Below are positions 1,203-47,006 of a stretch of DNA of 64,000 nt, in pieces. Numbering within the stretch: position 1 is the stretch's first letter; each line of letters opens with the position of its first letter. The DNA comes from a virus (taxonomy: Duplodnaviria; Heunggongvirae; Uroviricota; Caudoviricetes): the IMG/VR virus record IMGVR_UViG_3300042569_002502; one strand, given 5' to 3'. The position numbers and the translations under genes are program-made. The notes under the pieces were generated by a model. It made no database searches. It was not told the DNA's origin and worked only from the letters and a program-made list of their open reading frames with translations.

Positions 1203-1598
1203 TTATACAGGAATTTCTGTTGTTGTGGTGGTAGTAGTGGTGGGAGACTCTGTAGTAGTGGTAGTAGTTGTTTCCCAAGGCAACGGTAACACTATCAACG
1301 GTGGATTAACTATAAGGTTTAATTGGTTATATAGAGGTGTATCAATCATAGTCATATTCATAGACTCTTCTAACCAACCACATATTTGTTCATATGTTAA
1401 TTCATCATACGGTATAAAGTTTTCAGGATCTGGCTGAGTAAAATCTTGAATTCCAGGTATTGTTACGCTATATTCTATGCCATCTTTTGTAGCACTAGCC
1501 TTTCTTATCCAGTTTACTTTGATTACAACATCTGTTAACTCACCCTCTTGTTGTTTACATTGCATCTGTTCTATGATCCATGTATAAGTTGTTTCCAT
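1203..1598 (-). CDS. hypothetical protein with poly-Thr C-terminal tail
   Basis: 131-aa ORF ending in TTTTTTTESPTTTTTTTTEIPV, encoded by the ACC/ACT-rich stretch at 1205-1270. Confidence 0.5.
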   Translation of the reverse strand: METTYTWIIEQMQCKQQEGELTDVVIKVNWIRKASATKDGIEYSVTIPGIQDFTQPDPENFIPYDELTYEQICGWLEESMNMTMIDTPLYNQLNLIVNPPLIVLPLPWETTTTTTTESPTTTTTTTTEIPV

Positions 1599-28508: not shown

Positions 28509-31264
28509 TTTTTAAAGTTTAATCCACTAAGTGTTTTAATTGTTTGAAGTCTACCTGGAGTTAAGCTATTTATAAAAGACTGTGCTGCATCAGCAGATGG
28601 ATATGCAACAGGGTATATATCTCCTGGATTTTTATCAGCAATACCTCTTACATTACCTTCTCCATCTTTTATATAAAAGTAAATATTATGTTGACCAAGA
28701 TCATTAACTTTTATATCTGCTCCTAAAATATCTGTTTCTTGTCTTTGATGAAAGAATGATGGTGGATAATAAGCACCTGTATATGCAACAGGGTTGTTTG
28801 GATCTCCTGTTATAGAATTTGTTGTTCTGTTGTTTTCACTCCATGCAATTTTTCTATTAACATCTGAAACAGGGGCAGGAAGATTAATAACTGCTCCTTT
28901 TATATAATTTGCTGATCTTTTATCAATAGGTAATTGTTGTACTAAAGTGTTTCCATCATAAAGGTCTAATGTAAAAGTTTCTCCATAACTTCCAGGAGTT
29001 CCTCTATCAACACCAATAGAAACATTATACTTGTCTCTATCTTTTCCTGCTAAAAAGTTAGTAAATTTGTCAACATCTATTGTTCCTTTATAATTATCAA
29101 TCACTTCATTAAGTCGTTGATTGACAGATTTAATTTGGGGCTCCTTAGCATCCTCAGGATATAACGAAACAACTAGAGGCTCATTGCCTAACATTTTTTG
29201 TTTTAACACTTTTGCTTTAGCAGATAAAACATTTTGACCTACACTAGATGTAATTAATTTACTAGTATTAAAAATCCTTTCTATCCCTTCTTCACTAACC
29301 CCCGCATCTTTTGCATAAAGTCTAACAACAGGAGAACCAATTAAACCAGGTATTCTATACGCTTGGCTACCAAATTTTTTTTCTAATTCTTCTTTAGCCT
29401 GTTTAGCAAATGCAGAATATTCCTGATTTTTTAAAAAATCATTATTATAAACCAAACTAGCATTAAGAATATCTTTAGGTGTTATTTGAAAATTAAAATG
29501 TTTTTTCTCTTGAAAAGGCATCCTAGTTCCTCCTAATAAAACATCATCTTCACTTAATGATATATTAAAAGAAGGTAGGCCTTTCCCTAATTTAGTAAAA
29601 TCTAAATTTTCTCCAGAACCTGCACTTAAAACATCGGGATGTTTATTCAAGTCTTTCACTTCATTTGAATAATCACTTAAAGCTCTTTGATTAGCTTCTG
29701 CTACAGGTAATTGTGTAAGAAGAGGTGTATAATATGGATTTTTGGGATTTTTTTGAATATCATCTTTAGCCCTATCATAAGTCCTATCTATATATCCAGG
29801 AGCATTTTTTTCCCACTCAGTAATATTTTTTCTTATATCTTCATCAGAAACAGATTTACCATTTGCAAAATTTATTGCTTTAACATAATTAAAGACAAAT
29901 TGATCTTTTGTTTTCTTAGCACTTTCTTCTATTTTTTGTCCTTTTTCTATCCAATTAGAAAAAACTTCTACATCATTTAATGATTTTGTTAAATAGTCTG
30001 AACCAGGGGTTAAAGGTTTATCTGGATTATTAGGATCGTTTTTCCATTTTTCTTTATCTAAAGCAAGTTGTTGTTTAGAAATATCTATTCTAGACCATCC
30101 CTGTTTAATATTTTGTTGGTCTGCCCACCAATCTCTTTCATCTTTAATACGTTGTCTTTCAGCTTTCCAAGGAGCACTTTCAACATATTTTCTACTTATT
30201 GTTTCTGTTGTATAAGCTTCTGTGAATTTATTTTTTAATCCTTGTTCGTACACTAATGATTTCCATGTATCAAGATCACCCACTTGTCTGGCTCTCTGTA
30301 TTTTTTCATCGCCATATTGTTTTAAAGTGGAAATATCATTATCTGTTTTGTCTATAAGACTTTGTATTAATTTTTTCTTTTCAGGATCTGTTTCAGAAGC
30401 TCCTTTAGATAGAAGATCTAATCTCTTAGATTCTAAAATAGAAACTCCTTTGTTCTTTTCTTCCTCATATTGGCGAACAAAATCATCTAATTTATTATAT
30501 CCTCTATAATTATAAACACCACGCATAGCCATTTCTTGCTTAGCTTCTGGTCTACTCAAAACAGTGTCAATAGCTGCAGCAATTTTTTCACTGAACTTCC
30601 CTTGTTTTATTTCTTCTACAGCATATTCAGAAAGTATAGGAGCTCCTGCTTTATCGTATAATATTTTACCAGCAGGATCTGTTTTAAATACCTGCTGTGC
30701 TTCATATTTACTATCCCCTACAGCCTTTACAGCCTCTATAAGATTTTTTTCAATATCCCAAGAAGGTGTATATTGCCCTGAAAATTTTATTGGTTTTCCA
30801 GACTGATCTTTTAAATTGGGGTTTGATAAATAAGCATTCCTTTTAAGGTCATAATAATATCTTGCTTGTGGGGTTAGTTTACCAGCTTTTTCATCAGCTT
30901 CCATTTGTTTGTTCTGTTCTCTGTCATTAGCTGTTGAATATACAGCTGCTTGAACAAATGGATCTTTAACAATTTGTGTAGCCATTCCCCCTACAGAATT
31001 AACCAATTGTTGGTTAGAAAAATCCCCCGAAGCTACGGTTCTTAATTTTCCACCAAGTTCATTTAACTTAGACTTTAAATGTTCTTTATCTACATCCCTA
31101 GAAACGTCCATACCAGCAATATTATCAATATATCCCTGGATTTTTTGTACTCCTTGGTCATATTGTTGCTGTTTAGCCATGCCCACTTTAACCATAGCAT
31201 CAACAGGAAGTTGTTGCACATAGGGGTTAAATGGTTGTATCTGTGTATCGGTAAATGAGGCCAT
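28505..31264 (-). CDS. large virion protein (919 aa), function unknown
   Basis: ATG start. ATGA overlap with the 4157-aa gene. No recognisable catalytic motif. Confidence 0.6.
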   Translation of the reverse strand: MASFTDTQIQPFNPYVQQLPVDAMVKVGMAKQQQYDQGVQKIQGYIDNIAGMDVSRDVDKEHLKSKLNELGGKLRTVASGDFSNQQLVNSVGGMATQIVKDPFVQAAVYSTANDREQNKQMEADEKAGKLTPQARYYYDLKRNAYLSNPNLKDQSGKPIKFSGQYTPSWDIEKNLIEAVKAVGDSKYEAQQVFKTDPAGKILYDKAGAPILSEYAVEEIKQGKFSEKIAAAIDTVLSRPEAKQEMAMRGVYNYRGYNKLDDFVRQYEEEKNKGVSILESKRLDLLSKGASETDPEKKKLIQSLIDKTDNDISTLKQYGDEKIQRARQVGDLDTWKSLVYEQGLKNKFTEAYTTETISRKYVESAPWKAERQRIKDERDWWADQQNIKQGWSRIDISKQQLALDKEKWKNDPNNPDKPLTPGSDYLTKSLNDVEVFSNWIEKGQKIEESAKKTKDQFVFNYVKAINFANGKSVSDEDIRKNITEWEKNAPGYIDRTYDRAKDDIQKNPKNPYYTPLLTQLPVAEANQRALSDYSNEVKDLNKHPDVLSAGSGENLDFTKLGKGLPSFNISLSEDDVLLGGTRMPFQEKKHFNFQITPKDILNASLVYNNDFLKNQEYSAFAKQAKEELEKKFGSQAYRIPGLIGSPVVRLYAKDAGVSEEGIERIFNTSKLITSSVGQNVLSAKAKVLKQKMLGNEPLVVSLYPEDAKEPQIKSVNQRLNEVIDNYKGTIDVDKFTNFLAGKDRDKYNVSIGVDRGTPGSYGETFTLDLYDGNTLVQQLPIDKRSANYIKGAVINLPAPVSDVNRKIAWSENNRTTNSITGDPNNPVAYTGAYYPPSFFHQRQETDILGADIKVNDLGQHNIYFYIKDGEGNVRGIADKNPGDIYPVAYPSADAAQSFINSLTPGRLQTIKTLSGLNFKK

Positions 31265-34300: not shown

Positions 34301-35517
34301 TCTAATTTTTTTAGTTGACCTCTGTCTTGAATAGATCCACCGTCTTCCATTTTCTTTTTAGAATTCTTTTGTATAAATTCTTTTCCATAATAAGGAACAC
34401 CCATTCTTCCATAATCTTCTGGTTTAATAAATACAGTGTCTCCTTGAGGTGTTTCATATCCAACAAAAGCTCCAGGACCATTAGCATAAGGTGTTGAGGC
34501 ATATACAGGAGTTCCTTGATTATAATTAGTTTGGGGAGTAGAAATTGTTGATTGAACAACTGGTAAAGACTCTTGTTTAGTTTCTTCCTTTTTAATGTCT
34601 TTTTTTGGTTCAGATTTTTTATAGATAATAGGTTGTAATGGTTTTTTATAGATTAAGTTAGGGTCTTCTCTTTGAGGATATATCATATTTGTAGGATATA
34701 TACCAGTATTCAATGATTTGTTTAAAAGATTAACTCTTTCTTTAAAGTTCTTAGGAGAACCATATGAATACCCAGACATCTCCTTAGTACTATTTATAGC
34801 TTCTATTATATCTTTTTTAGAGACTTTTGTCTTTCCCCAATTTTTATCAGGTTTATAATCTTTTACATCATACTCATCACTATTATACTCAACAAAAGCT
34901 TTTTTACCTCTATTATATAGATTTAAACTATCAGTATAAGCTCTAAGTCTTGAATCATTAGGATTGTCTGTAAATATAGGAGTGCGACCTCCTTTTTGCA
35001 TCATTGGATATTCTATTACAGAATCTCCTTCATATACATAATCTTGGTTTGGATACATCATTTGTGTATCTCCTGTATTGCTTACACCTAAAACAGGATA
35101 GTTTACACCTTGCATGGTTATTTCATTGGAAGGTATTTCTGTTATTTTTCCTGGATGAGCCCATTGTCCTCTTGGGTCTTTTATTATTTTAGAGCCTTTC
35201 TTGCTTATAGTTTTTGGTCTGAAATCAAGACCTTCTTGATAGAATTTCATTTCCTTACCATTCTGCGCACTAGCTTTTGTTTTCTTAGCATAAGGACCAT
35301 TACTAGGAGCAGGACTATTTGTACGTGCATACATCATTCCTACAGAACCAGGAAGATTGCCACCCATTTGAAACTGTCCCCCCCATGCAGGAGAATAATT
35401 ACGTCCAATAGTGTTATACCCATCTCCTACAAAATTTGGAGATAGGTTAATAGAATAATCGTTATAGTTTAACTCTTTATCCTTTTTTACTTTCTTTTGT
35501 ATAGGTTTCTTTGCCAT
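31351..35517 (-). CDS. large Gly/Gln-rich virion protein (1388 aa) with repeated M(E/Q)xGG motifs
   Basis: ATG start. Low-complexity glycine-rich stretch (GGTDNQQAGQIGNILGGLGSIFTGGSGNFGG...GAGFAKGLGAAGLG). Recurring FQMGG/MEDGG/MQKGG motifs. This is typical of internal/ejection or tape-measure-like proteins. Confidence 0.6.
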   Translation of the reverse strand: MAKKPIQKKVKKDKELNYNDYSINLSPNFVGDGYNTIGRNYSPAWGGQFQMGGNLPGSVGMMYARTNSPAPSNGPYAKKTKASAQNGKEMKFYQEGLDFRPKTISKKGSKIIKDPRGQWAHPGKITEIPSNEITMQGVNYPVLGVSNTGDTQMMYPNQDYVYEGDSVIEYPMMQKGGRTPIFTDNPNDSRLRAYTDSLNLYNRGKKAFVEYNSDEYDVKDYKPDKNWGKTKVSKKDIIEAINSTKEMSGYSYGSPKNFKERVNLLNKSLNTGIYPTNMIYPQREDPNLIYKKPLQPIIYKKSEPKKDIKKEETKQESLPVVQSTISTPQTNYNQGTPVYASTPYANGPGAFVGYETPQGDTVFIKPEDYGRMGVPYYGKEFIQKNSKKKMEDGGSIQDRGQLKKLDQLTNFTNYNDMAKAKTGKKIKKAQMGMNALTGIGSSLLGAKGGTDNQQAGQIGNILGGLGSIFTGGSGNFGGMSGNQLGSQALDLFGGSGTAGKIMNVGPAGALGKGGAGFAKGLGAAGLGLVDSAGDIMKGFGEMKQQKQNIKKADQYAQVTGLTAQAAEMRPEKVRRKYVRPEDTILQPEQMAPSYGGGSNFLAAEFGAQIGGNQTEIQNMYNPGTLYDDLGYEPLNDTDVKQFRHGGHIPTAEFGDYFQSSGQASIGKGVGSAIGTAFFGPVGGMVGGLLGGVAGNALGGAQDAEKLRGFQKQAEDNTLRAAYQQTGQNIQNQYSSFMEDGGYVSNDWQPQVLAKFGEYDVKDLFAPDRTMNTLRSGGHITQNYTFPQDQFQMGGELQTHWGGYAEPISQNPYLPGTGETVMFRGQSHEETNGKGQSGIGVTYGDNPVEVERGEPAIKMEDGGEQSMVVYGNMQIPKYGVEALQDPKAKGKKFKNYINDISKTEAKQNKIIDKSTERVNNLDVYTPFDGLEMNALQANLIGADMKLKNIAQKKQTAAQVQNAILDTAEELGLESDALAKGQIKKAKFGAKLQTAQDGTEEFLIRAKQPGYIDYNAMPVSGNELWNKDSYSSKWIPKVKEAFNNPTKARDLISRLENYGGQDAEDVKNALKKGKTFEEKKNIAMRLATDKKVGPYHKIMNDLIDIKRTPAETIIDRQRPTLGGFEPKGGPIDFRKAVPEEKQKGKFNWRGLAESAISNLNPLFRPTDQEPLDPSQLMAEQYALATNQLEPVQAQSYKPLLEQPFDISLQDQLNANQADFNAIQRTVRNNPAALSALAAQKYGANSGVLGNQFRMNQAERAGVYNRNRGTLNDAQLKNLTLYDQQYTRQAQAKTNTKQQAQAALSSISDKMAKNRLENKTLGIYENLYNYRFGPKGQAINYNDPAQFNLEGNPFARPTTVDTKKSSKEDTGKYGAKIKSRNGSIVKAIKNL

Positions 35518-36383
35518 TATTTATAACTAATTTGAGCAGGTGCCACAATAAATTGAGAGATTAAATGAGCATCAGCTCTATCATCTAATATATGTCTTAT
35601 TTTTAATTCTTTAGCTCTTAATGGTTCCTTTTTAAAGCTTCTCTTAGAATAGTCCATATTAGGTTGGTTAATTATTTTATCCACTGATAAAGACTCACAT
35701 CCTGTTGAGAACAAAGGTATAGATTTATTCTTCACTAAAGACCAAAATGTATTGTATTGGTAGAAGTTATCAGACTTAGTAAAAGTTATAGTTTTACTTT
35801 CTGCATTATATAAAGGATATTTTAAATACTCTTTTAAGTTGTTTTTTGGTTTAGGCACTAGTTCTAAAAGTCCTGTGCTCTGTTGACCATTGTATAAAAC
35901 AGCTTTATTAAAATAAATATTGTTTATTTCTATTTTAGCATTGTTATTAAACACCCCATCTGGAATAGGAAGATATTGATACACTTTTGTATAATCCTTA
36001 ACATTCTGTAATATCTCATCTTGAAATTGATAAGAAAATGGATATTCAATTACATACGGTTGTATATCTCCGTAGTAAATATTATAAATTAATGTATTAG
36101 TTAAATGTCTCCATAAAGAAGCTGTGTTTGTATTTGTAAATTTTATATTAGCCACCTCATCCAAATAAAGCTGTTTAACAGGAATATTAATTCTTGCTTT
36201 ACATTTTCCTGTGGATTGTATTACAATAACAGTAACAGCATCATCAACACTTGCTGGAAACCCTGCAATAAGATTGTCCTTAGAAACATCAGTTCCCAAT
36301 ACATTCCCATAGTTATCTGAGATTGTAAAAGGACCTGTTCTAGTACCAGCCTTTGTTAATTTTATGAGTATTGTTTTAGACAT
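35517..36383 (-). CDS. structural protein, 288 aa
   Basis: ATG start. Its stop shares 1 nt with the start of the 1388-aa gene. No motif. Confidence 0.55.
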   Translation of the reverse strand: MSKTILIKLTKAGTRTGPFTISDNYGNVLGTDVSKDNLIAGFPASVDDAVTVIVIQSTGKCKARINIPVKQLYLDEVANIKFTNTNTASLWRHLTNTLIYNIYYGDIQPYVIEYPFSYQFQDEILQNVKDYTKVYQYLPIPDGVFNNNAKIEINNIYFNKAVLYNGQQSTGLLELVPKPKNNLKEYLKYPLYNAESKTITFTKSDNFYQYNTFWSLVKNKSIPLFSTGCESLSVDKIINQPNMDYSKRSFKKEPLRAKELKIRHILDDRADAHLISQFIVAPAQISYK

Positions 36384-36409: not shown

Positions 36410-37545
36410 TTAAGGGGCAACATTTAAATGTAAGACTGCCACTCTTTGTCTAGTTTGTCCGTTAAACTGTGTAAAAGAACCTACAACGTACACTAAATTC
36501 TGTGCTTCATTTATTTTTATACTCCTAACAAAAGTTGAAGAATCTGTGTAAAATCCAGTGGAAATAGGCCAAGAGTTATCATATGTTCCGTTTGAATTTA
36601 TTTTTACAATTCCTCCAGAAGTGTTGCCATTGTAACTTGTAAACTTACCTCCTATAACTATTTTACCATTAGACTCCCCACTTAATGCATATCCTAAATT
36701 AGAAGTGGATAGATAAGAACCAAATCCAGATCCAGCATTAGTTTTAAATGTATTATTAATTGTGTTATCTGTATTAATTTTAACAGGAACAATCCAATAA
36801 TTTGGGGAGCCAGTATTATTTTCTCCTACCGTTATCACTGAATTATCAATAGTTTGATGTGTAACTGTTGGGTAAGCACTTGTACTAGGGTCTAAATTAT
36901 AATTCACTATAAAACTTCCTGTGGAACTTATCTTAAATATTTTTGATATTACTGTTCCATTATAGTTATTAATATTGGCCCCAGTAATTATAATATCTCC
37001 ATTATTTAAAACTTCTACTGAACCAGCCTCGTTATTAATCCCAGTGCCTGTTACTAAAGTGGTATCTATACCTCCATTTGTATCCACTCTAACAATACGA
37101 TTGGCAGAAGAACCATTATAATTAGTAAATGCTCCTACTATTACTATTTTACCGTCAGTTTGAATATCAATATCTCTCACTTGTCCTGTAAATCCTGTAC
37201 CATATACAAAAGAAGAATCTATTGTACCGTCAGAATTTAATCTAATTATACTATTGGCAACAGTACCATTATAACTTGTAAAAGCTCCTCCAACTAAAAT
37301 TTTATTATCTGATTGTATTTTAACTTTATACACTCTTCCATTAAATCCACTTGTTAATCCAGTGAATGTTGGGTCAGGAACCCCTGAAGAATTAAATCTA
37401 ATTATTCTATTATATGTAACACCATTGTAAGCAGTGAAATCTCCACCAACAACATAATTATTATTAGAATCATAATCCACTGTCCATGCGTCATTATTTA
37501 ATCCTGTACCACTGTTAAAACTAGTGAGTATTTCAGCTGGTAATG
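36410..37545 (-). repeat. tandem delta-60-type beta-propeller repeats (protein level) at C-terminus of tail protein
   Basis: Repeats DFTAYNGVTYNRIIRFNSSGVPDPTF, AFTSYNGTVANSIIRLNSDGTIDSSF, AFTNYNGSSANRIVRVDTNGGIDTTL, NINNYNGTVISKIFKISSTGSF and KFTSYNGNTSGGIVKINSNGTYDNSW, spaced about 48-60 aa apart. Confidence 0.6.
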
Positions 37546-40500
37546 TAGTGGTAGTAGTTGTAGTGCAACTTCCTTCACCATCTATTACAGTGTCTGGGCC
37601 AACATGCCAGCAAGTAGTTCCGTCATATATCCATTTATTATTAAATAGCAATACAGGAAATTCTAATGCTGGATCATAATAAACTGTACATCCTATTCCA
37701 AAACTACTTCCACAACTACTATAAACAGTTAATGATGAACCATAACATCCAGGATCTGGAATACAACCTTCATTATATCCAGCTATTGCTTCACAACAAG
37801 TGTCCTGTCCACCATAACCAACACAAATACAGTTACTAAGATCTGTTACAACCACTGAAGTAGTTGCTGCAACTGTATAAACACCGCTTAATACAGTGGT
37901 TACAGGAGCTGCTGTAGCTGTTATTATTGAAAAATCAGTAATTGTTCCACCGCTAACATTTGTAGATATACCATCAACTGTTATTGTAATAGTTGAACTA
38001 TCAACAGGAACATTAAAACCCCTAAAATTTGAAGTATTCCACGCAGTGAATGTAGTATTCTCTTTCACTGCTAAACTACCACTTGATGGTGTATCAACAT
38101 CTAAAGTTTGAAGGTTACCACTAACATCTGTGTAATCTATGTATAAACGACCATCAACAAAATATTCCCCTGCTAAATCTGCTTCAGATAAAGACCAATT
38201 TATTGTAGAAGGAGGAGGACATGTAAAGAAATTATACAACATTCCTTCTGGTCCAATTAAATAATAATTTGTACCATCGCTATAATATAATGTACCACCG
38301 TTAAAAGGAATTGTACATGCTGGATCAGTATAAAAAATAGTGAGATCTACTGTTAAACTAGATGTAGTGGTATAATATGTTGTTGTTGGGCCTTCAGGAT
38401 ATAAAGAACAAGCTTCAAACTCTGTTCCACCTGAAGGTCCTAATACTACAGGATAGTTACTACAATTAATTTCTATAGATTTTACCGTTATGTTAGAAGG
38501 ATTGTTATGGTCTCTAACAGCAATATACCAAGTTCCATTATCCACCTCATCGTTTTGTAAATGAGTGACATTAAGACTAAACACTCCATTTATTGCTCCA
38601 CTTTCACTAGAATAAGGGAAAGAGTTTATATCATATTCTCCACTACCGCCAGTAATATATCCTTCTGGATAAACTCCTGTAGGGCCCACTGAGATTCTTC
38701 CACAACCATTTCCTACACATATACAAGTGTAAACAAAAGAAAAATCAATTGGTATTGGAACTGTTGTAGTAGTAGTGGTTGTAGGAGGAAGTTCTTCAAA
38801 AGCAAGAGCTTCAAGATCGCATCCTCCATTTATTCCTGAATAAAAGAAATTATTTTCTGCTATGTAAAAGTTTGGAATATAACTGTGAAAGCTTACCCAA
38901 CTTTTGGTGTTCATGTTAAAAGAAAGTGTCCAAGATTTATTACAGAAATAATTTGTATCAGACAGACTCACTACATCTTTAAATGTAACACCATTTACAA
39001 CTCTTTCTACATAAAAATCTTTTGTTGCTTCGTCATATTTAATATTTGAACTTTGAGGAATATAATCAAATTTTGATATAATCACTCTATCAAACTTACT
39101 ATCATACACTCCATGTAACCCAATTCCATTAAAGTGATTGTCTGTGTCTACTGTTGGATAGTATCTGAGTATTTCAAAAGCTAAATGATCCGTAAAAAAC
39201 TTATTCATTCCAAGCCCAAAAGCAGAAAGATCTGATGCCTGGTTACCAGTAATTAAAAATATTTGTCCTCTTTTAGCATCAACAGTAATTTGTCCTTGAG
39301 GAATTTTTAATAAAAATTTATTTTGACTTCCTACATATCCAAGATCTGTTTCAGCAAAATCAATTGGAGGAGCTGATTTAAATAATGTATCATTACCTAA
39401 ATAAGCTGCTTGTGGATTGCTTGTTTGTACAGTAAGCATTGTATTGTAAAGCAAAGACTTGTTTTCAAATCTTGCTAATACAGCTTTATTTTGAATACCA
39501 TCTAATGATGTTAGTTTACCAAAATTTTGTGGAAAATCAAAATAAGAAGTTGCACTATAGTTCAACCAGTTATTCACTCCTGAGTTTGTAAAACTCTCCT
39601 GTTGATCAGAATATATTGCCCTGAAAGGAAAAGTTGTAAAACACACTTTAGGTTCCCAGTTATTAGGAAGATGCGAAAAAAGATTTTCCTTGTTTTGTTT
39701 TGAATATGTTACGTTGTAATAATATGTATTATCTTGAGCAATAGGTACAACTGACTCTTGTAGCCAGTTATCAGGAATACCTGTACTTACATGTGGATAA
39801 AAATCTCCTTCTTGGTTGTTAAATGCTTGTCTAAGGTCTACGTTAATAGAAGATTCCACATAAAAGTATGGAATACCATAAGCATATAAATACATTTTTC
39901 CATCATAATAAGTTCTATTAGGATTTACAACAACAGGAGGCCCAGGTGTTGGTGCAGGAAGTTGACTATTAGGGCAATCAAAATTGTGAGCTTTAATAGA
40001 TATAATATTCTTCATTACAGTGCCTCCTGTTGGAGTGTAGTCACTAAGAATAGATCTAGAAGAAAACCAATATTTAGGGTAGGCTATATTTCCCACCTCA
40101 TCATAAAATATATCTGAATCATCTGGAGCATTCACTCTATCATCTATAAATAAAGGAAGTTTAGTTTTAAAAGCAAACTTTCCTATAAAAGTGTCCCCAC
40201 CAAAAACTGTATCTATTGAAGGCTGCCCATTAAGAATATTATCTATTTCTATATTTCTTTGGAAACCTGTATCAATTGTGTCATATGAATATATTTGTCC
40301 CCATTGGTTAACAAATATATTTTTCATTGATCCGTAATAAGAGATAACATCAATATGCCTTTCCTCGCTAGGAGTGGAACATTTATCATCATCAGAAGCT
40401 ACAAATCTAGAATTATCTGTAAAAAGACTCACCCCTACAGGAGCAATAGAAGGACTTTTATCTGGAAATGGAAGAGGTGTTACAACATTACCATTTCTAG

Positions 40501-43099
40501 TTTCTATAGTTTTTAAAAATACAGAAGACTCTCTATTATAATTATTTATATTTATACCATTAGTTTCTCCTATAGCCTGTACTCCCTCAAAAATATACTG
40601 AGCAACCGCCAGAGGTCTTTGTTTCACTCCTACATTATTGATTATATCAGCACTATAATCATAGCTAGCAATAGAGTTAAAAGAATATGCGTAATTTCTT
40701 CTTGTAATACCGTTAATATAAATTTGTAGATAAGCCTGATAAGCAGTGAATAAAACTAAAGGATCTAATGTTCCTGTTATAGAAGCTATTTCTGTACTAG
40801 AGTTTAATGCATCCTTTTGAGCCTCTTTTGTTAATAATTTATATAAAGCATGTTCTCTAACTTGTACAAAATGAGCCTTTCCGCCACCAAGAATAATATT
40901 TTCTAATTTAAGGACATTCCCTAAATAAGGTTGTCCAAATAAAGTTTCTGGAGAATTAAACACATGTCTGTATTTAGAATCATCAGAAGAAAATCCCTCT
41001 AATTCAGGTGTAATGTAATAATCTGATAATGGTATAGTGGTAGACTCTGTAAATGTTACAGTGCCTGTTAAAGCTATTGGGGTGGATAGAGATGTAATTG
41101 TAATAAGAGTACCAGCAGTCATGTTAGCTGTAATAGGTGTATTTGTGTAACAATCTGTATATTGATATGTACCACTTACACTAGGTGTGCCTGTATACAC
41201 CTTACACTCATCTTTGTAGGCATTACTTTTTGAAAGTATAAAAGGATCTTTTCTAAGATCGTTATATGGGTAGTTTGGATAATAATAGTCTGTCCCCTCT
41301 CTATTGTATTTCCCTACATTCCTTAATATCCCTTTAGATATAATGGATTTGTTTGTACTTCTATCTCCTCTAACAATTTTAAAAGCAACAATACTTTCTT
41401 TTTGTTCTTTTGTTAAATTAGATGTATATATTAATTGAGAAACTTGTTGAATATCTATCCTCACTCCTATTGGGAATATAGCATCATTTTGCATCACTGG
41501 TGAAAAACCTGGTCCTAATGAATAAACAGGACTTTCAAATATAGGACTAACTAATACATCAGGAAACTTATGGTGCCTAATTGGTTGATCTGCTAATTCA
41601 CCCCATACATCTATATTACAAGGATATTTTTCTGTAGATTCCCAATAAGCAAACTCTCCATATTGATATGGACCTTTATATGTAATTTTATTTAAAGCTG
41701 CTAAGTATTCAGGATTAAAACCTGTAACAGATGCTGTATTATAAATTTTCCAATAAGCACTATATCCTACACCACCAGATTCAAATTCAGGGTCTCCAAC
41801 AAAATCAGGGTTTGTTGTAGGCACTAATGGTTCAGAAGTTTCATTAAATGTAATAGCTCTTCCAGGAATATGAAACCCATCTGTTTGTTTTCCATTTTTT
41901 AATAAAAAAACAATTTCAAATGCATACACTTCATCCCTTAAATATCCTCTATAATTAGTGGCATTTAACTCATCAGCGTATGTTTCAGTGTTAGGAATTC
42001 TATAAGATTGCCATTTAAGATCTATTTGATTAGCAATTTGTTGATAGTTAATTCTATCAATAGATGTAAGACCGTCCCACACTAGTACATCCTGCACTGT
42101 TGTAAGATCTTCTGCTATTTCATAATAAGGAAATTTTTCAAAAATGTCATTAATTGTAAGTCTAATTTGTGTTACATTTTGACCAGTGTAGGTAATCTCT
42201 CTACTAACATTATTTATAAAATATGTTCCAACTAATTCTACGGAAGAAATAGCATTAACGGTTTTTATCACTGCTAAATTAAAATATTTAAACAGTCCTG
42301 ATATATCTAAATTAGAGACATTAATTACAATAGATCTTCCCACCGTATAGTTAAAATTTAATGTAGTTTTAGCTGCATCAAAAATAGGTGTTGGATTAGT
42401 AACAGAATAATATGATGTATATGAATTCCCATTAGCATCACAATATTGTATTGCAAATTGATATGTTCCAGCTTGCAACTCTCCACCTGTATTAATATCC
42501 ACCACTTCTAGTTGTGGAATTTCAAAGTTGGGTTGAACATTTAATTTATTACAATCTAGTTCTTTTGTTTCTGTTATTCCACATAAATTAATATTTCCAC
42601 CTAAAGCTATTGGGTAGGATAAAATATATGGTATGTTTTCAATATCTAAATATCTTCTTGGATTTAAACCATCCGTCCAATAAATTTCAGTGGTACAATT
42701 AGTTATTTTATGTACCACTTTATGAATAGGGTTGTCTATATTAAAATTTAGACAAGTGGCAGATACTAATGTATGGTAGGTACAATCATTATTATTCATA
42801 TACCCAATCTCAGAAGCTCCTGAAGATGGATTTGTAAGAAAGAATATATGTTTATTTTTTTCTGGAATAAAATGTGTCCCAATAAGATGATAGTCTTGGG
42901 GAAAGTTTAAGCATAGTTCATTTCCTGGTTCATTTTGATAGTTAACACTGTCACTATCAAAATTCTCTATAGTAGCATTAAGAGCATAAGAAAGCTTACC
43001 CTTTGCTATTTGATTAGCAGAGCTATCCATATCAAGACCAATTCTTGCTAAGTTATACTCTTCTCTTATATTACCAGCGGATTGATTATTTTCAGCCAT
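36410..43099 (-). CDS. giant modular tail protein (2229 aa) with C-terminal delta-60-repeat beta-propeller
   Basis: ATG start. N-terminal approx. 1300 aa is a structural core. Then comes a poly-Thr linker (TTTTTTTVPIP), a Cys-rich module bounded by two CICVG.G motifs, a second poly-Thr linker (37545-37570), and 5-6 repeats of G.FT.YNG...IIRLNSDGTIDSSF (delta-60 repeat). Confidence 0.75.
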   Translation of the reverse strand: MAENNQSAGNIREEYNLARIGLDMDSSANQIAKGKLSYALNATIENFDSDSVNYQNEPGNELCLNFPQDYHLIGTHFIPEKNKHIFFLTNPSSGASEIGYMNNNDCTYHTLVSATCLNFNIDNPIHKVVHKITNCTTEIYWTDGLNPRRYLDIENIPYILSYPIALGGNINLCGITETKELDCNKLNVQPNFEIPQLEVVDINTGGELQAGTYQFAIQYCDANGNSYTSYYSVTNPTPIFDAAKTTLNFNYTVGRSIVINVSNLDISGLFKYFNLAVIKTVNAISSVELVGTYFINNVSREITYTGQNVTQIRLTINDIFEKFPYYEIAEDLTTVQDVLVWDGLTSIDRINYQQIANQIDLKWQSYRIPNTETYADELNATNYRGYLRDEVYAFEIVFLLKNGKQTDGFHIPGRAITFNETSEPLVPTTNPDFVGDPEFESGGVGYSAYWKIYNTASVTGFNPEYLAALNKITYKGPYQYGEFAYWESTEKYPCNIDVWGELADQPIRHHKFPDVLVSPIFESPVYSLGPGFSPVMQNDAIFPIGVRIDIQQVSQLIYTSNLTKEQKESIVAFKIVRGDRSTNKSIISKGILRNVGKYNREGTDYYYPNYPYNDLRKDPFILSKSNAYKDECKVYTGTPSVSGTYQYTDCYTNTPITANMTAGTLITITSLSTPIALTGTVTFTESTTIPLSDYYITPELEGFSSDDSKYRHVFNSPETLFGQPYLGNVLKLENIILGGGKAHFVQVREHALYKLLTKEAQKDALNSSTEIASITGTLDPLVLFTAYQAYLQIYINGITRRNYAYSFNSIASYDYSADIINNVGVKQRPLAVAQYIFEGVQAIGETNGININNYNRESSVFLKTIETRNGNVVTPLPFPDKSPSIAPVGVSLFTDNSRFVASDDDKCSTPSEERHIDVISYYGSMKNIFVNQWGQIYSYDTIDTGFQRNIEIDNILNGQPSIDTVFGGDTFIGKFAFKTKLPLFIDDRVNAPDDSDIFYDEVGNIAYPKYWFSSRSILSDYTPTGGTVMKNIISIKAHNFDCPNSQLPAPTPGPPVVVNPNRTYYDGKMYLYAYGIPYFYVESSINVDLRQAFNNQEGDFYPHVSTGIPDNWLQESVVPIAQDNTYYYNVTYSKQNKENLFSHLPNNWEPKVCFTTFPFRAIYSDQQESFTNSGVNNWLNYSATSYFDFPQNFGKLTSLDGIQNKAVLARFENKSLLYNTMLTVQTSNPQAAYLGNDTLFKSAPPIDFAETDLGYVGSQNKFLLKIPQGQITVDAKRGQIFLITGNQASDLSAFGLGMNKFFTDHLAFEILRYYPTVDTDNHFNGIGLHGVYDSKFDRVIISKFDYIPQSSNIKYDEATKDFYVERVVNGVTFKDVVSLSDTNYFCNKSWTLSFNMNTKSWVSFHSYIPNFYIAENNFFYSGINGGCDLEALAFEELPPTTTTTTTVPIPIDFSFVYTCICVGNGCGRISVGPTGVYPEGYITGGSGEYDINSFPYSSESGAINGVFSLNVTHLQNDEVDNGTWYIAVRDHNNPSNITVKSIEINCSNYPVVLGPSGGTEFEACSLYPEGPTTTYYTTTSSLTVDLTIFYTDPACTIPFNGGTLYYSDGTNYYLIGPEGMLYNFFTCPPPSTINWSLSEADLAGEYFVDGRLYIDYTDVSGNLQTLDVDTPSSGSLAVKENTTFTAWNTSNFRGFNVPVDSSTITITVDGISTNVSGGTITDFSIITATAAPVTTVLSGVYTVAATTSVVVTDLSNCICVGYGGQDTCCEAIAGYNEGCIPDPGCYGSSLTVYSSCGSSFGIGCTVYYDPALEFPVLLFNNKWIYDGTTCWHVGPDTVIDGEGSCTTTTTTTLPAEILTSFNSGTGLNNDAWTVDYDSNNNYVVGGDFTAYNGVTYNRIIRFNSSGVPDPTFTGLTSGFNGRVYKVKIQSDNKILVGGAFTSYNGTVANSIIRLNSDGTIDSSFVYGTGFTGQVRDIDIQTDGKIVIVGAFTNYNGSSANRIVRVDTNGGIDTTLVTGTGINNEAGSVEVLNNGDIIITGANINNYNGTVISKIFKISSTGSFIVNYNLDPSTSAYPTVTHQTIDNSVITVGENNTGSPNYWIVPVKINTDNTINNTFKTNAGSGFGSYLSTSNLGYALSGESNGKIVIGGKFTSYNGNTSGGIVKINSNGTYDNSWPISTGFYTDSSTFVRSIKINEAQNLVYVVGSFTQFNGQTRQRVAVLHLNVAP

Positions 43100-43124: not shown

Positions 43125-44054
43125 TTACCCATTTCTTCTCCAACCATATCTAGTCACCCTATTAGGTAACTCATACATATTGAATCTATTTAAATCTTGT
43201 TTTATTCTTCTCTGTTTAGCATAAACATCTTGCTTTTTTATTTCAATATCTGCCATTATAAATGCTTCATCAGACAGTTGTTTGTAATAAACAAGTTTAG
43301 ATTGAATCTGTTGGAATGTTTCATCGGTTAACTGATTAGATAACATTTCAAACACTTTGTATTTAATAAAAGCCTCAACGTATTCTAATATACGATAGTT
43401 ATCTGGAATCATTTGATTTCCATTATTATCATATTCTGTTGCATAAAACAATAAATAAACTACACCATTTCTAAAATTGGTAACAAATTTGTTATCCCTA
43501 ATATCAAACGAATCTGCAGAAGAAGCCCCAATATTTCTACAATCCAGAGAACAATGTTCTTTAACAGAGATATTTCCTGGTTTTAATAAATATTGTTTGT
43601 GGTAGGAAACAGCCACCTGATTATTTGTTTTGTATACAGCTTGAATTAATTCAGGCATGCACTCTCCTGTACAATCTTGATTATTACAATCAACATTTGT
43701 ACAACCAGCTCCTCCGTGTGTAACAGGACTCACTTGAATAGTGGTTTGAGAAGCAGCTTGAGAATAGAATGAATTAGCTGATTGATAAGGGTAGCCAGGA
43801 ATTTCTGTACATAACCAAGCTTCTCTAACAGCATAAAAATTATCAGGTAGTCTTGTCTCAAAATCATGTATATGTAATAGTTGAGGAGTTATTACATAAG
43901 TTGTTCTTCCTAATTTTCTTAGACATTTATCTAAATATGTAGGAAATAAAAGATCATCTACAGCCCCAGTATCAAAATAACTTTTTAATTCCTCTTTTAC
44001 AGTGGAATAAACAGATTCTGGAGATATAAAATTATATTTATAATAATAAGACAT
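43125..44054 (-). CDS. hypothetical Cys-containing structural protein (309 aa)
   Basis: ATG start. Cys clusters (GCTNVDCNNQDCTGEC, CSLDCRN). Basic C-terminus. Confidence 0.5.
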   Translation of the reverse strand: MSYYYKYNFISPESVYSTVKEELKSYFDTGAVDDLLFPTYLDKCLRKLGRTTYVITPQLLHIHDFETRLPDNFYAVREAWLCTEIPGYPYQSANSFYSQAASQTTIQVSPVTHGGAGCTNVDCNNQDCTGECMPELIQAVYKTNNQVAVSYHKQYLLKPGNISVKEHCSLDCRNIGASSADSFDIRDNKFVTNFRNGVVYLLFYATEYDNNGNQMIPDNYRILEYVEAFIKYKVFEMLSNQLTDETFQQIQSKLVYYKQLSDEAFIMADIEIKKQDVYAKQRRIKQDLNRFNMYELPNRVTRYGWRRNG

Positions 44055-44059
44055 TTATT

Positions 44060-44539
44060 TTAAATTTTCCATGATTTGTAAATATGTTGATATTTTTCGT
44101 CAGTTTTTAAGTAATGAGACAACAATCTTGAGGTGACTCTTGTGGGTTTGAAATACCAGAGATATGAATGTTTTAGTCTTGTCGATTCTTTAAACCACAC
44201 CCATCCAAAAAAATAACCTTCTGTGTGATAATTAAAATTATAAATTTTCTTCCCTTTTTCTTTTGTCTTTTGCCAATCAATAGGAAGATTTATATATTCT
44301 TTACCATTATAAATACTAACCTTTTTTCTTTTCTTTTTGTTAATTGAGAATTCACCAAATCCTGAAGGAAGTCTCCCTTTATCCCCTGTTTCTAAAATAT
44401 ATATTTTAAAAGACTCGTTAAAAGAATAAATAATATTCCTCCATTTATCAAAAGATATTTTTATGTCAGAGTTTTTTTTACAAAAATCAACATAATTTTC
44501 TTTACTAGCACTTCTCCATTCTACTTTTACTCTTGGCAT
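44060..44539 (-). CDS. hypothetical basic protein (159 aa)
   Basis: ATG start sharing 1 nt with the upstream stop (TAATG). Lys-rich. Confidence 0.45.
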   Translation of the reverse strand: MPRVKVEWRSASKENYVDFCKKNSDIKISFDKWRNIIYSFNESFKIYILETGDKGRLPSGFGEFSINKKKRKKVSIYNGKEYINLPIDWQKTKEKGKKIYNFNYHTEGYFFGWVWFKESTRLKHSYLWYFKPTRVTSRLLSHYLKTDEKYQHIYKSWKI

Positions 44540-45264
44540 TATTTTCCATTTGGTGCATTAACTGCTTGGCCATCTACATTATCATCTGTAAGATCTGTTT
44601 TAATTCTAAAGTATGTACCTAATAATTTTTGAGACGTAAGTTCTAGTACTTGTTTTTCCAAATAACCAGGACAACCATATTCTTTATCTAATGGATTTTT
44701 ACAGAAATCTTCTGTGTTAATGTTATTTCTACAAGCACATTCGGAAAACATTATTTCATTTGGAACATCTTCTTCAAAAAAAGCAGCAATTCTTATAGCC
44801 TCTAAAAGAGGATTGTTTATATATAAATAACCGTTAGCTATCCAATAATATTGTTCATTTTTAACAATACGTAGTTTTAATAGATTTAAATATCTATTTA
44901 TAGTTATCTCTTTAAATCTTTTTCCTTTTCCTCCCAAAGCATTTATAGACCAAACTCCTTGAATTAAATATTGATAATTTCCTTCAGAAATACGAGGAAG
45001 TTTAAATTTTGTTCTAGCTACGGTGCAAGGATCTTGGAAATCACAACATTCAGAAATGGGCACCTCCACTAACTCTAAACAAGGAATAGTGGTGAATAGT
45101 GTATCTGTAGCCCAAAGTTTTCTAAGATTAGTCTCTCTTTTAACAAGAAGAATAGTGTTGTTTTTTATCTCAGAAGCAATAGCACGATCTGTTATCAAAC
45201 TATCCGTTGATAACAATCTGTGCATACTTCTTACGTCAGAAACTAATTTTCTTAATGTAGCCAT
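44539..45264 (-). CDS. hypothetical Cys-rich protein (241 aa)
   Basis: ATG start. Tightly coupled to its neighbours. Motifs CCDFQDPC and CACRNN...CKNP...GCPGY. Confidence 0.5.
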   Translation of the reverse strand: MATLRKLVSDVRSMHRLLSTDSLITDRAIASEIKNNTILLVKRETNLRKLWATDTLFTTIPCLELVEVPISECCDFQDPCTVARTKFKLPRISEGNYQYLIQGVWSINALGGKGKRFKEITINRYLNLLKLRIVKNEQYYWIANGYLYINNPLLEAIRIAAFFEEDVPNEIMFSECACRNNINTEDFCKNPLDKEYGCPGYLEKQVLELTSQKLLGTYFRIKTDLTDDNVDGQAVNAPNGK

Positions 45265-46660: not shown

Positions 46661-46987
46661 TTATAATGGAAGGGTTGTAGATGTGGTAGTTGTAGGTACA
46701 CAAAATCCTGTTAATGTACAAAAACTCTCTATAAGATCTGTATTTTGAAAAATCATATATAAAGTTTGTCGTGCTATTGTATAAGGATCTAAGGTATTAT
46801 CTAGTTTTTCCAAAGCTACAACAAGACTATCTCCTGTATCCACCCCTGAATTTGGTAAATTAGGGCCATTATATTTAACATCAGTGGCAGCTATTGGATA
46901 GCCTTTAAACCATCCATTATCACATTTTTTTGGATAGAAAGCATTCACTGTATTTTCAAAACAAGGTGTGCCTGGTAAACAAGACAT
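46661..46987 (-). CDS. hypothetical protein with poly-Thr C-terminus (108 aa)
   Basis: ATG start. N-terminus MSCLPGTPC..C. Ends VPTTTTSTTLPL. Confidence 0.5.
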   Translation of the reverse strand: MSCLPGTPCFENTVNAFYPKKCDNGWFKGYPIAATDVKYNGPNLPNSGVDTGDSLVVALEKLDNTLDPYTIARQTLYMIFQNTDLIESFCTLTGFCVPTTTTSTTLPL

Positions 46988-47006
46988 ATATTAATAATTT
47001 AAAATA

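What the first reader, a model, noticed from the sequence alone, without database searches (positions are those of the whole stretch)
36410..38790. Tail protein with two poly-Thr-linked add-on modules: a Cys-rich domain bracketed by CICVG.G motifs and a delta-60-repeat beta-propeller
The C-terminal approx. 900 aa of the 2229-aa protein are organised as polyT, then a roughly 420-aa Cys-rich module (CICVGNGCGRISVG ... CICVGYGGQDTCCEA), then polyT, then 5-6 delta-60 repeats (G.FT.YNG....I.RLN.DG.ID..F). The delta-60 repeat is a hallmark of secreted Bacteroidetes proteins. Here it is apparently grafted onto a phage tail protein as a likely receptor-binding propeller.
Basis: partly seen in the sequence, partly recalled or inferred. 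Interest (0 to 1): 0.55.

Follow-up and report, generated by a model that had tools for sequence, protein, structure and literature searches.

The report
Split phage muzzle with swappable adhesin arm
The tail-tip "muzzle" protein of an uncultured crAss-like phage carries a 790-residue, threonine-tethered chain of small domains ending in a seven-bladed delta-60 propeller, attached where the muzzle gene has split in two; related phages swap and resize this appendage, as expected for a host-binding device.

Summary
ORF 36410-43099 (-) encodes 2229 aa with Thr7 tracts at aa 1440-1446 and 1846-1852, two CICVG motifs and a C-terminal delta-60 region.

- **Identity:** it is a crAss-type muzzle protein (PF25731), next to ring proteins R1 and R2.
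- **Propeller:** the last 377 aa pass both delta-60 profiles and model confidently as a seven-bladed propeller.
- **"Cys-rich module":** this is four separate small domains with no Pfam match.

1. The muzzle gene is split. The 288-aa ORF 26 nt downstream carries the ancestral muzzle C-terminus. It is fused in one polypeptide in FpV4, Lbo-JY46 and L048, as crAss001 gp44 carries both muzzle Pfam domains. It is separate in 67 of 68 clade loci.
2. The add-on sits at that break and is hypervariable, 10-790 aa in 67 proteins. Only this phage and one relative carry delta-60.
3. Near-identical phages differ by module-level changes: an in-frame 189-aa deletion, and a swap of the propeller's central blades.

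An accessory host-surface adhesin is the best reading, but binding is inferred, not shown. No close bacterial donor was found. Delta-60 proteins already occur in uncultured phages. I rate it a new variant of a known kind.

The parts
38783..43099 (-). Muz-N core (aa 1-1439): the conserved crAss-type muzzle body, ending ...NFFYSGINGGCDLEALAFEELPP
   Evidence: PF25731 crAss_MUZ scores 129.5 bits, and phrog_37948 and phrog_15100 (virion structural protein) also hit. IMG/VR holds 291 relatives that match aa 1-1439 at 46-91% identity. tblastn matches to Lbo-JY46 and Cellulophaga phages end at aa 1376-1424.
38762..38782 (-). Poly-Thr linker 1 (aa 1440-1446)
   Evidence: Position; mixed Thr codons. 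T/S-rich runs occur in the tails of 64 of 67 clade Muz-N proteins.
38462..38761 (-). Domain 1a (aa 1447-1546). It is about 100 aa with the pattern PIDF..C..G.I.V..GG.G.Y...NGTWY.AVRD.NNPSN...C and 4 Cys, and it starts with the first CICVG.
   Evidence: Homologues P0125-P0128, P0130 and P0132-P0141 are 31-58% identical. P0127 and P0128 carry it as tandem copies separated by T-rich linkers. No Pfam match, SprB repeat included.
38219..38461 (-). Domain 1b (aa 1547-1627). It is a small Cys-bounded domain with the pattern ..FYTDPA...G.LYYSDGTNYY..G..G......C and 3 Cys.
   Evidence: It is shared with L002 (85% identical over 1a+1b) and with P0004. The same pattern recurs in many clade tails and satellite proteins. 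No Pfam match. Domains 1a and 1b plus linker 1 are exactly what the natural variant L161 lacks.
37832..38218 (-). Domain 1c (aa 1628-1756). It is Cys-free, starts TINWSLSEADL..., and is probably rich in beta strands (not modelled).
   Evidence: It is 54-58% identical to P0001, which lies after a Peptidase_S74 fibre gene in another phage contig. It also matches P0002 (the L001 816-aa ORF) and P0129. No Pfam match.
37565..37831 (-). Domain 1d (aa 1757-1845). It is a 10-Cys knot that starts with the second CICVG, and its second half resembles 1b.
   Evidence: Homologues are in P0001, P0002 and P0131. In P0131 it stands alone between two poly-Thr tracts. No Pfam match.
37544..37564 (-). Poly-Thr linker 2 (aa 1846-1852)
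   Evidence: In L001 the equivalent position holds a long Pro/Thr linker.
36413..37543 (-). Delta-60 / DUF5122 seven-bladed beta-propeller (aa 1853-2229); the stop codon is at 36410-36412
   Evidence: TIGR02608 scores 76.7 bits (cutoff 76.5) and PF17164 scores 153.4 bits. There are 2472 homologues. The AlphaFold2 model has pLDDT 88.8 and pTM 0.90, with seven strand groups. The top Foldseek PDB hits are all propellers: CylK, BT4673/BT4663 and RACK1, at E 2e-11 to 1e-8. The central blades are replaced in variant L184.
35517..36383 (-). Muz-C (288 aa), a separate gene 26 nt downstream in another reading frame. It has an N-terminal ND domain (aa 1-77, window 36153-36383) followed by the ancestral muzzle C-terminal segment (aa 78-288, window 35520-36152).
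   Evidence: phrog_15100 positions 1587-1781 of 1783 match. Its aa 88-288 align to the C-terminal end of single-polypeptide muzzles: Lbo-JY46 CDS 82844-87808 and FpV4 gp29. The FpV4 region contains PF25729 crAss_MUZ_C. In L048 the segment lies inside the muzzle ORF in the same frame, while in 67 other loci it is a separate gene. The family has 2652 members. The ND part models at pLDDT 77-92.
43125..44054 (-). Context: tail ring protein R1 homologue, immediately upstream of the muzzle gene
   Evidence: PF24228 CrAss_Ring_1, E 9.6e-10
44539..45264 (-). Context: tail ring protein R2 homologue
   Evidence: PF25702 CrAss_Ring_2, E 1.2e-18

Best explanation
The 2229-aa ORF is the N-terminal piece (Muz-N) of a crAss-type tail muzzle protein whose gene has split in this phage clade. 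The ancestral C-terminal segment is now the 288-aa protein encoded 26 nt downstream (Muz-C).

The free C-terminus created at the break carries a tethered array: Thr7, four small domains (1a, 1b, 1c, 1d, three of them Cys-rich), Thr7, then a seven-bladed delta-60 propeller. The muzzle is a hexamer at the distal tail tip in crAss001. By inference each virion would therefore display six flexible arms of about 790 residues around the tail tip.

I propose the arms are accessory adhesins. The propeller, and perhaps the small domains, would bind a host-surface component and hold the muzzle against the cell. They would act alongside the phage's conventional fibre (Peptidase_S74) and ConA-like lectin proteins.

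The array is built from cassettes that are exchanged, deleted and resized at domain boundaries.

Shown: protein identity, domain architecture, propeller fold, gene split, hypervariability and mosaicism.

Inferred: hexameric display, non-covalent reassembly of Muz-N with Muz-C, and ligand binding.
For: **Identity and context.** PF25731, ring proteins, capsid and portal.

**Propeller.** Profile scores, confident AlphaFold2 model, and only propeller hits in PDB and BFVD.

**Gene split.**
- phrog_15100 covers the N-terminus of Muz-N and the C-terminus of the 288-aa protein.
- The two parts are contiguous in single CDSs of Lbo-JY46 and FpV4, and in the single muzzle ORF of L048.
- PF25729 lies in that region of FpV4 and of crAss001 gp44.
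- The break point reads FYSGING|AISSIWEHN in L048, against FYSGINGG...polyT in Muz-N and ...TASLWRHL in Muz-C.

**Variability.**
- Tails after aa 1439 range from 10 to 790 aa (median 130) on cores 46-91% identical.
- L002 has a 91% identical core and keeps 1a+1b at 85%. After the 'FFTCP' boundary it carries an unrelated middle domain and a propeller only about 30% identical.
- L161 is 99.9% identical in DNA but lacks 567 nt (aa 1440-1628), in frame, between TCCTCCT direct repeats.
- L184-L186, from three or more samples, are 97-100% identical in the flanks but 45-85% across about 900 nt of the central blades.

**Cassette mobility.**
- 1c+1d occur after a tail-fibre gene in another phage contig.
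- 1c+1d+propeller occur in a stand-alone ND-headed protein in L001.
- One variable domain is fused to Muz-N in L056 but carried on a separate ND protein in L013 and L052.

**Literature.** Bayfield et al. 2023 (PMC10172136) place the muzzle hexamer at the tail tip. They propose that it contacts the cell surface, and they note length variation through insertions.
Against: - No binding data exist, and the ligand of any delta-60 or DUF5122 protein is unknown. A literature search found nothing on its function.
- The host is unidentified, and the window holds no tRNA genes.
- The phage already encodes a Peptidase_S74 fibre, two ConA-like lectin proteins and another fibre-like protein, so the arm is not needed as the primary receptor binder.
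- The small domains of module 1 have no family or fold assignment.
- The Muz-C model was unusable outside ND (pLDDT below 50), so the exit point of the arm on the muzzle is not mapped.
- Direct profile evidence linking Muz-C to crAss001 gp44 is weak (hhalign probability 6.9%). No Pfam hit on Muz-C itself was found. The link rests on transitive homology through FpV4.
Confidence: 0.6

Rival explanations
1. The arms are general adherence decorations, like Ig-like capsid decorations in the 'bacteriophage adherence to mucus' idea. They would stick virions to particles, exopolysaccharide or biofilm matrix where hosts live, rather than recognise a host receptor.
For: The domains are small, tethered and of adhesin type. 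Several other virion proteins in this phage end in bare poly-Thr tails, and relatives attach modules to those tails, which suggests display all over the particle. Bacterial delta-60 homologues are often T9SS-exported surface proteins.
Against: The largest and most variable array sits on the tail tip, the part that must meet the cell. Swapping of only the central blades between near-identical phages resembles host-range arms-race variation more than generic stickiness.
Confidence: 0.2
2. The propeller is an enzyme, for example a lyase or depolymerase that clears capsule or exopolysaccharide in front of the muzzle.
For: The top Foldseek PDB hits include catalytic propellers: CylK and virginiamycin B lyase.
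Against: Sequence identity to those is only 13-17%. The conserved columns across 74 homologues are repeat-framework residues (G, D, K, F, R, L, N, Q) repeated in every blade, with no unique catalytic set. No enzyme family matched.
Confidence: 0.07
3. The tail is mainly structural. It would help the two halves of the split muzzle assemble, or stabilise the tail tip, and its variability would be neutral drift in a permissive site.
For: The add-on sits exactly at the fission point. Some relatives have tails of only 10-40 aa, so a large array is dispensable. A variant lacking 189 aa is found in an independent metagenome sample.
Against: Neutral drift does not explain repeated acquisition of whole folded domains, in-frame module-level changes at domain boundaries, or sharing of the same cassettes with tail-fibre-associated proteins of other phages.
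Confidence: 0.1
4. The long ORF is an assembly or gene-calling artefact that joins a phage gene to bacterial delta-60 sequence.
For: None beyond the unusual architecture.
Against: The identical protein is indexed in 44 blocks of the collection, on contigs up to 112 kb from JGI and ENA samples, with 100% nucleotide identity to the window. Independent variant contigs span the junctions. L002 has the same layout.
Confidence: 0.01

Closest known systems
Muzzle protein gp44 of Bacteroides phage crAss001 (PF25731 + PF25729; Bayfield et al. 2023, PMC10172136)
   Same: It belongs to the same Pfam family and has the same gene neighbourhood (ring proteins upstream, large cargo-like ORFs downstream). By homology it forms the hexameric tail-tip assembly. 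The paper already notes length variation through insertions and a likely role in contacting the cell.
   Different: gp44 is one 1371-aa polypeptide with MUZ and MUZ_C together. Here the gene is split. The MUZ part carries a 790-aa poly-Thr-tethered array at the break, and the MUZ_C part has gained a 77-aa N-terminal domain. No sequence-level match to any PDB chain was found.
Single-polypeptide muzzle homologues of cultured environmental phages: Leptolyngbya phage Lbo-JY46 (1654 aa), Flavobacterium phage FpV4 gp29 (1961 aa), Cellulophaga phages phi17:2 and phi4:1
   Same: These are the closest cultured relatives of the core, at 24-34% identity. The first two contain both the Muz-N and the Muz-C parts.
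   Different: In Lbo-JY46 and FpV4 the two parts are contiguous in one CDS. None of these records matches module 1, and none was among the only two records matching the delta-60 region.
Bacterial delta-60 repeat / DUF5122 proteins (TIGR02608, PF17164), many with a T9SS C-terminal sorting domain
   Same: The repeat family and the propeller fold are the same, at 31-44% identity over the whole 377 aa.
   Different: The phage copy has no T9SS sorting domain and no secretion context. It is an internal fusion to a virion protein. No close donor was found: the best species-representative genome hit is 37% identical, in a Bacteroidales MAG.
Delta-60 proteins of uncultured Caudovirales (UniProt A0A6J5NBZ2 and A0A6J5M436 'Delta-60 repeat') and IMG/VR contigs
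   Same: The propeller fold is the same in phage-encoded proteins: Foldseek E 8e-21 and 3e-16 with TM 0.76 and 0.67, and at least 485 stretches lie in IMG/VR.
   Different: Those are other proteins, 18-22% (BFVD) or 32-48% (IMG/VR) identical. None was shown to be a muzzle. Among 67 muzzle tails examined, only this phage and L002 carry delta-60.
Modular receptor-binding proteins of tailed phages (tail-fibre and tailspike tip swapping)
   Same: A conserved virion-anchoring part is combined with an exchangeable distal binding module. Mosaic replacement occurs between near-identical genomes. This comparison rests on general knowledge of phage biology.
   Different: The anchor here is the tail-tip gatekeeper itself rather than a fibre. 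The modules are beads on low-complexity Thr linkers rather than trimeric fibre tips.

Membership tests
Crassvirus muzzle protein (PF25731 crAss_MUZ) | Profile match above the gathering score | tested here: met
   129.5 bits against a cutoff of 27, with three matched stretches, the best at aa 18-315. The PHROG virion structural families 37948 and 15100 also match.
Crassvirus muzzle protein (PF25731 crAss_MUZ) | Gene sits in the crAss-type tail module, next to the ring protein genes | tested here: met
   CrAss_Ring_1 lies at 43125-44054 and CrAss_Ring_2 at 44539-45264. Crass_capsid lies at 52237-53790 and a P22-like portal at 55723-58308.
Crassvirus muzzle protein (PF25731 crAss_MUZ) | One polypeptide that also contains the C-terminal domain (PF25729 crAss_MUZ_C), as in crAss001 gp44 | tested here: not met
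   gp44 and FpV4 gp29 carry both domains. Here the homologous segment is in the separate 288-aa ORF. That ORF does not itself reach PF25729, so the link runs through FpV4 and a weak hhalign match to gp44 aa 1230-1304.
Crassvirus muzzle protein (PF25731 crAss_MUZ) | Hexameric assembly at the distal end of the tail | not testable with these tools
   Known only for crAss001 from cryo-EM (PMC10172136).
Delta-60 repeat (TIGR02608) / DUF5122 propeller (PF17164) | Profile score at or above the curated cutoff | tested here: met
   TIGR02608 scores 76.7 against 76.5, which only just passes. PF17164 scores 153.4 against 27. Four stretches match in each.
Delta-60 repeat (TIGR02608) / DUF5122 propeller (PF17164) | Tandem repeats with a period of roughly 50-60 residues | tested here: met
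   G.F..YNG-type motifs lie at aa 1886, 1938, 1989, 2151 and 2207, with degenerate units near aa 2041 and 2095. The period is 51-57 aa.
Delta-60 repeat (TIGR02608) / DUF5122 propeller (PF17164) | Folds as a beta-propeller | tested here: met
   The AlphaFold2 model has pLDDT 88.8 and pTM 0.90 with seven strand groups. All top Foldseek hits in PDB and BFVD are propellers.
T9SS-secreted delta-60 surface proteins of Bacteroidota | C-terminal T9SS sorting domain (PF18962) | tested here: not met
   No PF18962 hit in the window protein. The domain is present in 23 of the 120 listed homologues.
SprB repeat (considered for domain 1a because of the ...GG.G.Y...Y.V.V.D.N..C pattern) | Match to the Pfam SprB repeat profile | tested here: not met
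   A Pfam scan of aa 1447-1550 at E up to 10 returned only noise hits, fn1 and DUF5707.
Phage receptor-binding / adhesin module | Conserved anchor with a hypervariable, recombining distal part | tested here: met
   Tail length ranges 10-790 aa on conserved cores. Cassette replacement occurs in L002, an in-frame deletion in L161, and a central-blade swap in L184.
Phage receptor-binding / adhesin module | Demonstrated binding to a host surface component | not testable with these tools

The most novel reading that the evidence does not exclude
This clade may run a plug-and-play display system on the tail tip. The 77-aa ND domain heads Muz-C. It also heads small 'satellite' proteins of the form ND, poly-Thr, variable domain. 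These satellites are encoded between Muz-N and Muz-C or about 4 kb upstream in most relatives. ND would be a docking module that attaches exchangeable binding domains non-covalently to the muzzle, perhaps on the short CxLxGxA peptide repeats in the Muz-N tail. That would be analogous to cohesin-dockerin assembly. The bare poly-Thr tails on other virion proteins would be further attachment or glycosylation sites.
Probability: 0.15. Interest if true: 0.8.

Novelty: new variant of a known kind. Interest (0 to 1): 0.55.

Why it matters
The crAss muzzle was described in 2023 as a conserved gatekeeper with a previously unseen fold. How it senses the cell is still open. This clade is abundant in metagenomes: 291 muzzle relatives in IMG/VR and 2652 Muz-C relatives in the protein database.

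In this clade the muzzle gene has split, and the break has become a hotspot where folded binding domains are attached, swapped and deleted. That gives three things:

- a natural map of a permissive, surface-exposed site on the muzzle;
- sets of near-isogenic variants (full-length, 189-aa deletion, propeller swap) suited to testing what the tail tip binds;
- a first biological context in which the function of the uncharacterised delta-60 / DUF5122 propeller could be measured.

It also shows that a phage structural protein can tolerate fission, apparently without loss of the complex.

Tried and rejected
1. **Solved structures.** phmmer of the whole protein gave no hit. A profile search with the Muz-C alignment gave only noise, coagulation factor V at E 0.04.
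2. **AlphaFold2 of the 288-aa Muz-C.** The 30-sequence alignment (57-93% identical to the window protein) gave mean pLDDT 54. Only ND (aa 1-80) was confident. Foldseek against PDB gave nothing significant (best E 0.4), so the split could not be mapped onto the crAss001 structure.
3. **Structure of module 1.** Not attempted. MAFFT misaligned the few homologues of 1c and 1d, and only one prediction job remained.
4. **First search with module 1.** The query included a Thr7 end and was probably swamped by T-rich candidates, giving 4 hits. The exhaustive HMMER search gave 25 hits.
5. **Pfam scans of the four sub-domains, P0001 and P0004** at E up to 10 returned only noise.
6. **Donor search in species-representative genomes.** The single-protein query found 18 loci, the best 37% identical, with no donor.
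7. **Paralogue idea.** The idea that the 288-aa ORF is a paralogue of part of the big ORF was rejected: BLASTP and phmmer found nothing.
8. **Docking idea.** The number of CxLxGxA motifs does not correlate with the number of ND proteins per locus (Spearman rho 0.17, p 0.20). The test was crude, and it gives no support.
9. **Second copies in the window.** There is no second copy of the modules or of ND elsewhere in the window.
10. **Literature.** Nothing on delta-60 function, and one modelling paper that mentions DUF5122.


Full report
**Observation.** ORF 36410..43099 on the minus strand encodes 2229 aa. Thr7 runs lie at aa 1440-1446 and 1846-1852. CICVG occurs at aa 1459 and 1757. Seventeen of the 32 cysteines fall in aa 1447-1845, and none falls in the last 377 aa. 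The Thr tracts use mixed codons.

- the add-on is 790 aa, not about 900;
- the Cys-rich stretch is 399 aa, not 420;
- the propeller is 377 aa, not 470.

The second CICVG opens the last sub-domain rather than closing the module. The exact protein is indexed in 44 blocks of the collection, on contigs up to 112 kb. Two of these contigs are 100% identical to the window in DNA, so it is not an assembly artefact.

**What the protein is.** Pfam gives crAss_MUZ (PF25731, 129.5 bits) and DUF5122 (PF17164, 153.4 bits). NCBIfam gives delta-60 (TIGR02608) at 76.7 bits against a cutoff of 76.5. Upstream lie CrAss_Ring_1 and CrAss_Ring_2. Further upstream lie the Crass major capsid protein and a P22-like portal.

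Downstream lie ORFs of 1388, 919, 4157 and 2150 aa, the position where crAss001 encodes its cargo and RNA polymerase proteins. The window is therefore the structural block of a crAss-like phage, and the ORF is its muzzle protein. In crAss001 the muzzle is a hexamer of about 1 MDa at the tail tip (PMC10172136).

**The propeller.** The last 377 aa have 2472 homologues at E <= 0.001. With a 74-sequence alignment, AlphaFold2 gives pLDDT 88.8 and pTM 0.90, with seven groups of strands. Foldseek returns only propellers:
- in PDB: CylK, the BT4673/BT4663 sensor domains and RACK1, at E 2e-11 to 1e-8;
- in BFVD: uncultured Caudovirales proteins, one already named 'Delta-60 repeat', at E 8e-21 and 3e-16.

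Five blades carry the G.F..YNG motif and two are degenerate.

The statement that delta-60 is a hallmark of secreted Bacteroidetes proteins is only partly right. Of the 120 listed hits, 23 carry the T9SS sorting domain, and named hits include Flavobacterium and Ginsengibacter. Genome hits also include Spirochaetota, Acidobacteriota and Undibacterium. IMG/VR holds at least 485 viral stretches. From my own recollection, the TIGRFAM name refers to Deltaproteobacteria. No donor was found: the best species-representative genome hit is 37% identical. In GenBank phages only two Stenotrophomonas jumbo phages match, at about 25%.

**The 'Cys-rich module' is four domains.** The exhaustive HMMER search of 1.84 billion representatives found only 25 relatives. 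They match separate pieces:

| Domain | Residues | Cys | Where else it occurs |
|---|---|---|---|
| 1a | 1447-1546 | 4 | alone, or in tandem with T-rich linkers (P0125-P0128, P0130) |
| 1b | 1547-1627 | 3 | L002 and P0004 |
| 1c | 1628-1756 | 0 | P0001, P0002, P0129 |
| 1d | 1757-1845 | 10 | stands between two poly-Thr tracts in P0131 |

None matches Pfam, SprB repeat included. The CICVG motif is not conserved in these homologues. P0001 lies just after a Peptidase_S74 fibre gene in another phage contig. In L001 an 816-aa ORF carries 1c+1d+propeller at 54% identity, joined by Pro/Thr linkers.

**The muzzle gene is split.** The 288-aa ORF 35517..36383 lies 26 nt downstream in another frame. It matches the last 195 positions of phrog_15100, the same family that matches the N-terminus of the big ORF. 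It is not a paralogue of any part of the big ORF.

Its aa 88-288 align to the extreme C-terminus of single-polypeptide muzzles:
- Lbo-JY46 CDS 82844-87808, where the Muz-N match ends 15 nt before the Muz-C match begins;
- FpV4 gp29 CDS 23933-29818.

That region of FpV4, and aa 1244-1333 of crAss001 gp44, carry PF25729 crAss_MUZ_C. hhalign places the Muz-C family at gp44 aa 1230-1304, but only weakly.

In IMG/VR locus L048 (46% identical core) the segment lies inside the muzzle ORF in the same frame. In the other 67 loci with downstream sequence it is a separate gene. The split is therefore derived and specific to this clade. The break lies between FYSGING and (T)ASLW.H. Muz-C also gained a 77-aa N-terminal domain, ND, which models confidently (pLDDT 77-92). 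The rest of that model is unusable, and no fold match was found.

**The break is a hypervariable display site.** In 67 complete Muz-N proteins the tail after aa 1439 ranges from 10 to 790 aa (median 130). Sixty-four have T/S runs and 56 have short CxLxGxA motifs. The small Cys-rich domains vary widely. Only the window and L002 carry delta-60.

In about 23 loci, one or two extra genes lie between Muz-N and Muz-C. Each encodes ND, a poly-Thr/Ser linker and a variable domain. Most loci also have an ND protein about 4 kb upstream. One variable domain is fused to Muz-N in L056 but sits on an ND protein in L013 and L052.

**Recent module-level changes.**
- L002 has a 91% identical core. It keeps linker 1, 1a and 1b at 85%. 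After the 'FFTCP' boundary it switches to an unrelated domain and a propeller only about 30% identical.
- L161 is 99.9% identical in DNA but lacks 567 nt, in frame, between TCCTCCT repeats. The deletion removes linker 1, 1a and 1b at the same boundary.
- L184-L186, from three or more samples, are 97-100% identical to the window at 37664-37365 and 36431-36034. They are only 45-85% identical over about 900 nt in between, which covers the central blades.

**Mechanism.** The best reading is six tethered adhesin arms at the tail tip, ending in a ligand-binding propeller. They would assist adsorption alongside the Peptidase_S74 fibre (1610-4027), two ConA-like lectin proteins (4150-5564) and a fibre-like protein (47007-48146).

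Architecture, fold, split and variability are shown. Hexameric display, reassembly of the two halves and binding are inferred. The rivals are generic environmental adherence, an enzymatic propeller and a purely structural role. An assembly artefact is excluded.

**Novelty.** Muzzle proteins, delta-60 propellers and modular exchange of binding domains are all known, and delta-60 proteins are already annotated in uncultured phages. The new elements are:
- fusion of a delta-60 propeller to the muzzle;
- fission of the muzzle gene;
- use of the break as a cassette display site, with ND-headed satellite proteins.

I found no paper describing these. I rate it a new variant of a known kind, with interest 0.55.

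Noticed in passing
window 35517-36383 (-); also L074, L013, L058 and about 20 other loci between the muzzle gene and Muz-C; L001:435-2885; P0128: A conserved N-terminal domain of about 75 aa, which I call ND (consensus M..TVLITLT.AG.DTGPF.LYS..D.....FE.GVSK..L..GY.S.VP..AT.IRV.S....C.NY.DL.I). It heads Muz-C and a family of small satellite proteins of the form ND, poly-Thr, variable Cys-rich domain. It has no Pfam match, and AlphaFold2 models it confidently as a small beta-rich domain.
   Followed up: partly
tails of Muz-N in L003-L081 (for example L013, L032, L058); window aa 1427-1437 (about window 38789-38821): Short repeats of about 12 aa with the pattern (D/N)CxLxG(T/E)A, present in 1 to 8 copies. 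They sit between poly-Thr tracts in most clade tails. The window has one degenerate copy (GGCDLEALAFEEL) at the end of the core. Their copy number does not correlate with the number of ND proteins (rho 0.17).
   Followed up: partly
window 1203-1598 (-), 49179-50330 (-), 46664-46990 (-): Three other proteins end in bare poly-Thr tails with no domain after them: a DUF7936 protein, a 383-aa protein and a 108-aa protein. P0131 is a homologue of the 108-aa protein in which the tail continues into a 1d-type Cys knot and a further domain. The bare tails may therefore be empty sockets, or possibly glycosylation sites.
   Followed up: partly
window 16035-28508 (-) and 9579-16031 (-): Very large ORFs of 4157 and 2150 aa lie downstream of the muzzle and have no significant Pfam family. 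They sit where crAss001 encodes its virion-packaged RNA polymerase and cargo proteins.
   Followed up: no
window 1610-4027 (-), 4150-4863 (-), 4860-5564 (-), 47007-48146 (-): Conventional receptor-binding candidates: an 805-aa fibre with a Peptidase_S74 chaperone and T4 long-tail-fibre-like PHROG hits, two adjacent ConA-like lectin (Laminin_G_3) proteins, and a fibre-like 379-aa protein.
   Followed up: partly
PP438436.1 82844-87808 (L162): The closest cultured relative of the muzzle core (34% identical) is in a phage of the cyanobacterium Leptolyngbya boryana, not of a Bacteroidota host. A Bacteroidota host for the window's phage should therefore not be taken for granted.
   Followed up: no
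window 55193-55723 (-): An SPFH / Band 7 domain protein (E 8.9e-25) is encoded between the portal gene and the next structural gene, which is an unusual item in a phage structural block.
   Followed up: no
L030:11415-13550 and L033:11295-12550: In two relatives the genes inserted between Muz-N and Muz-C do not start with ND. They start with a domain whose sequence pattern resembles an SprB repeat (...YQI.SG.PNFT....G.Y.L.V.D..GC; not tested against the profile). L033 additionally has an inserted ORF that looked lysozyme-like by eye.
   Followed up: no
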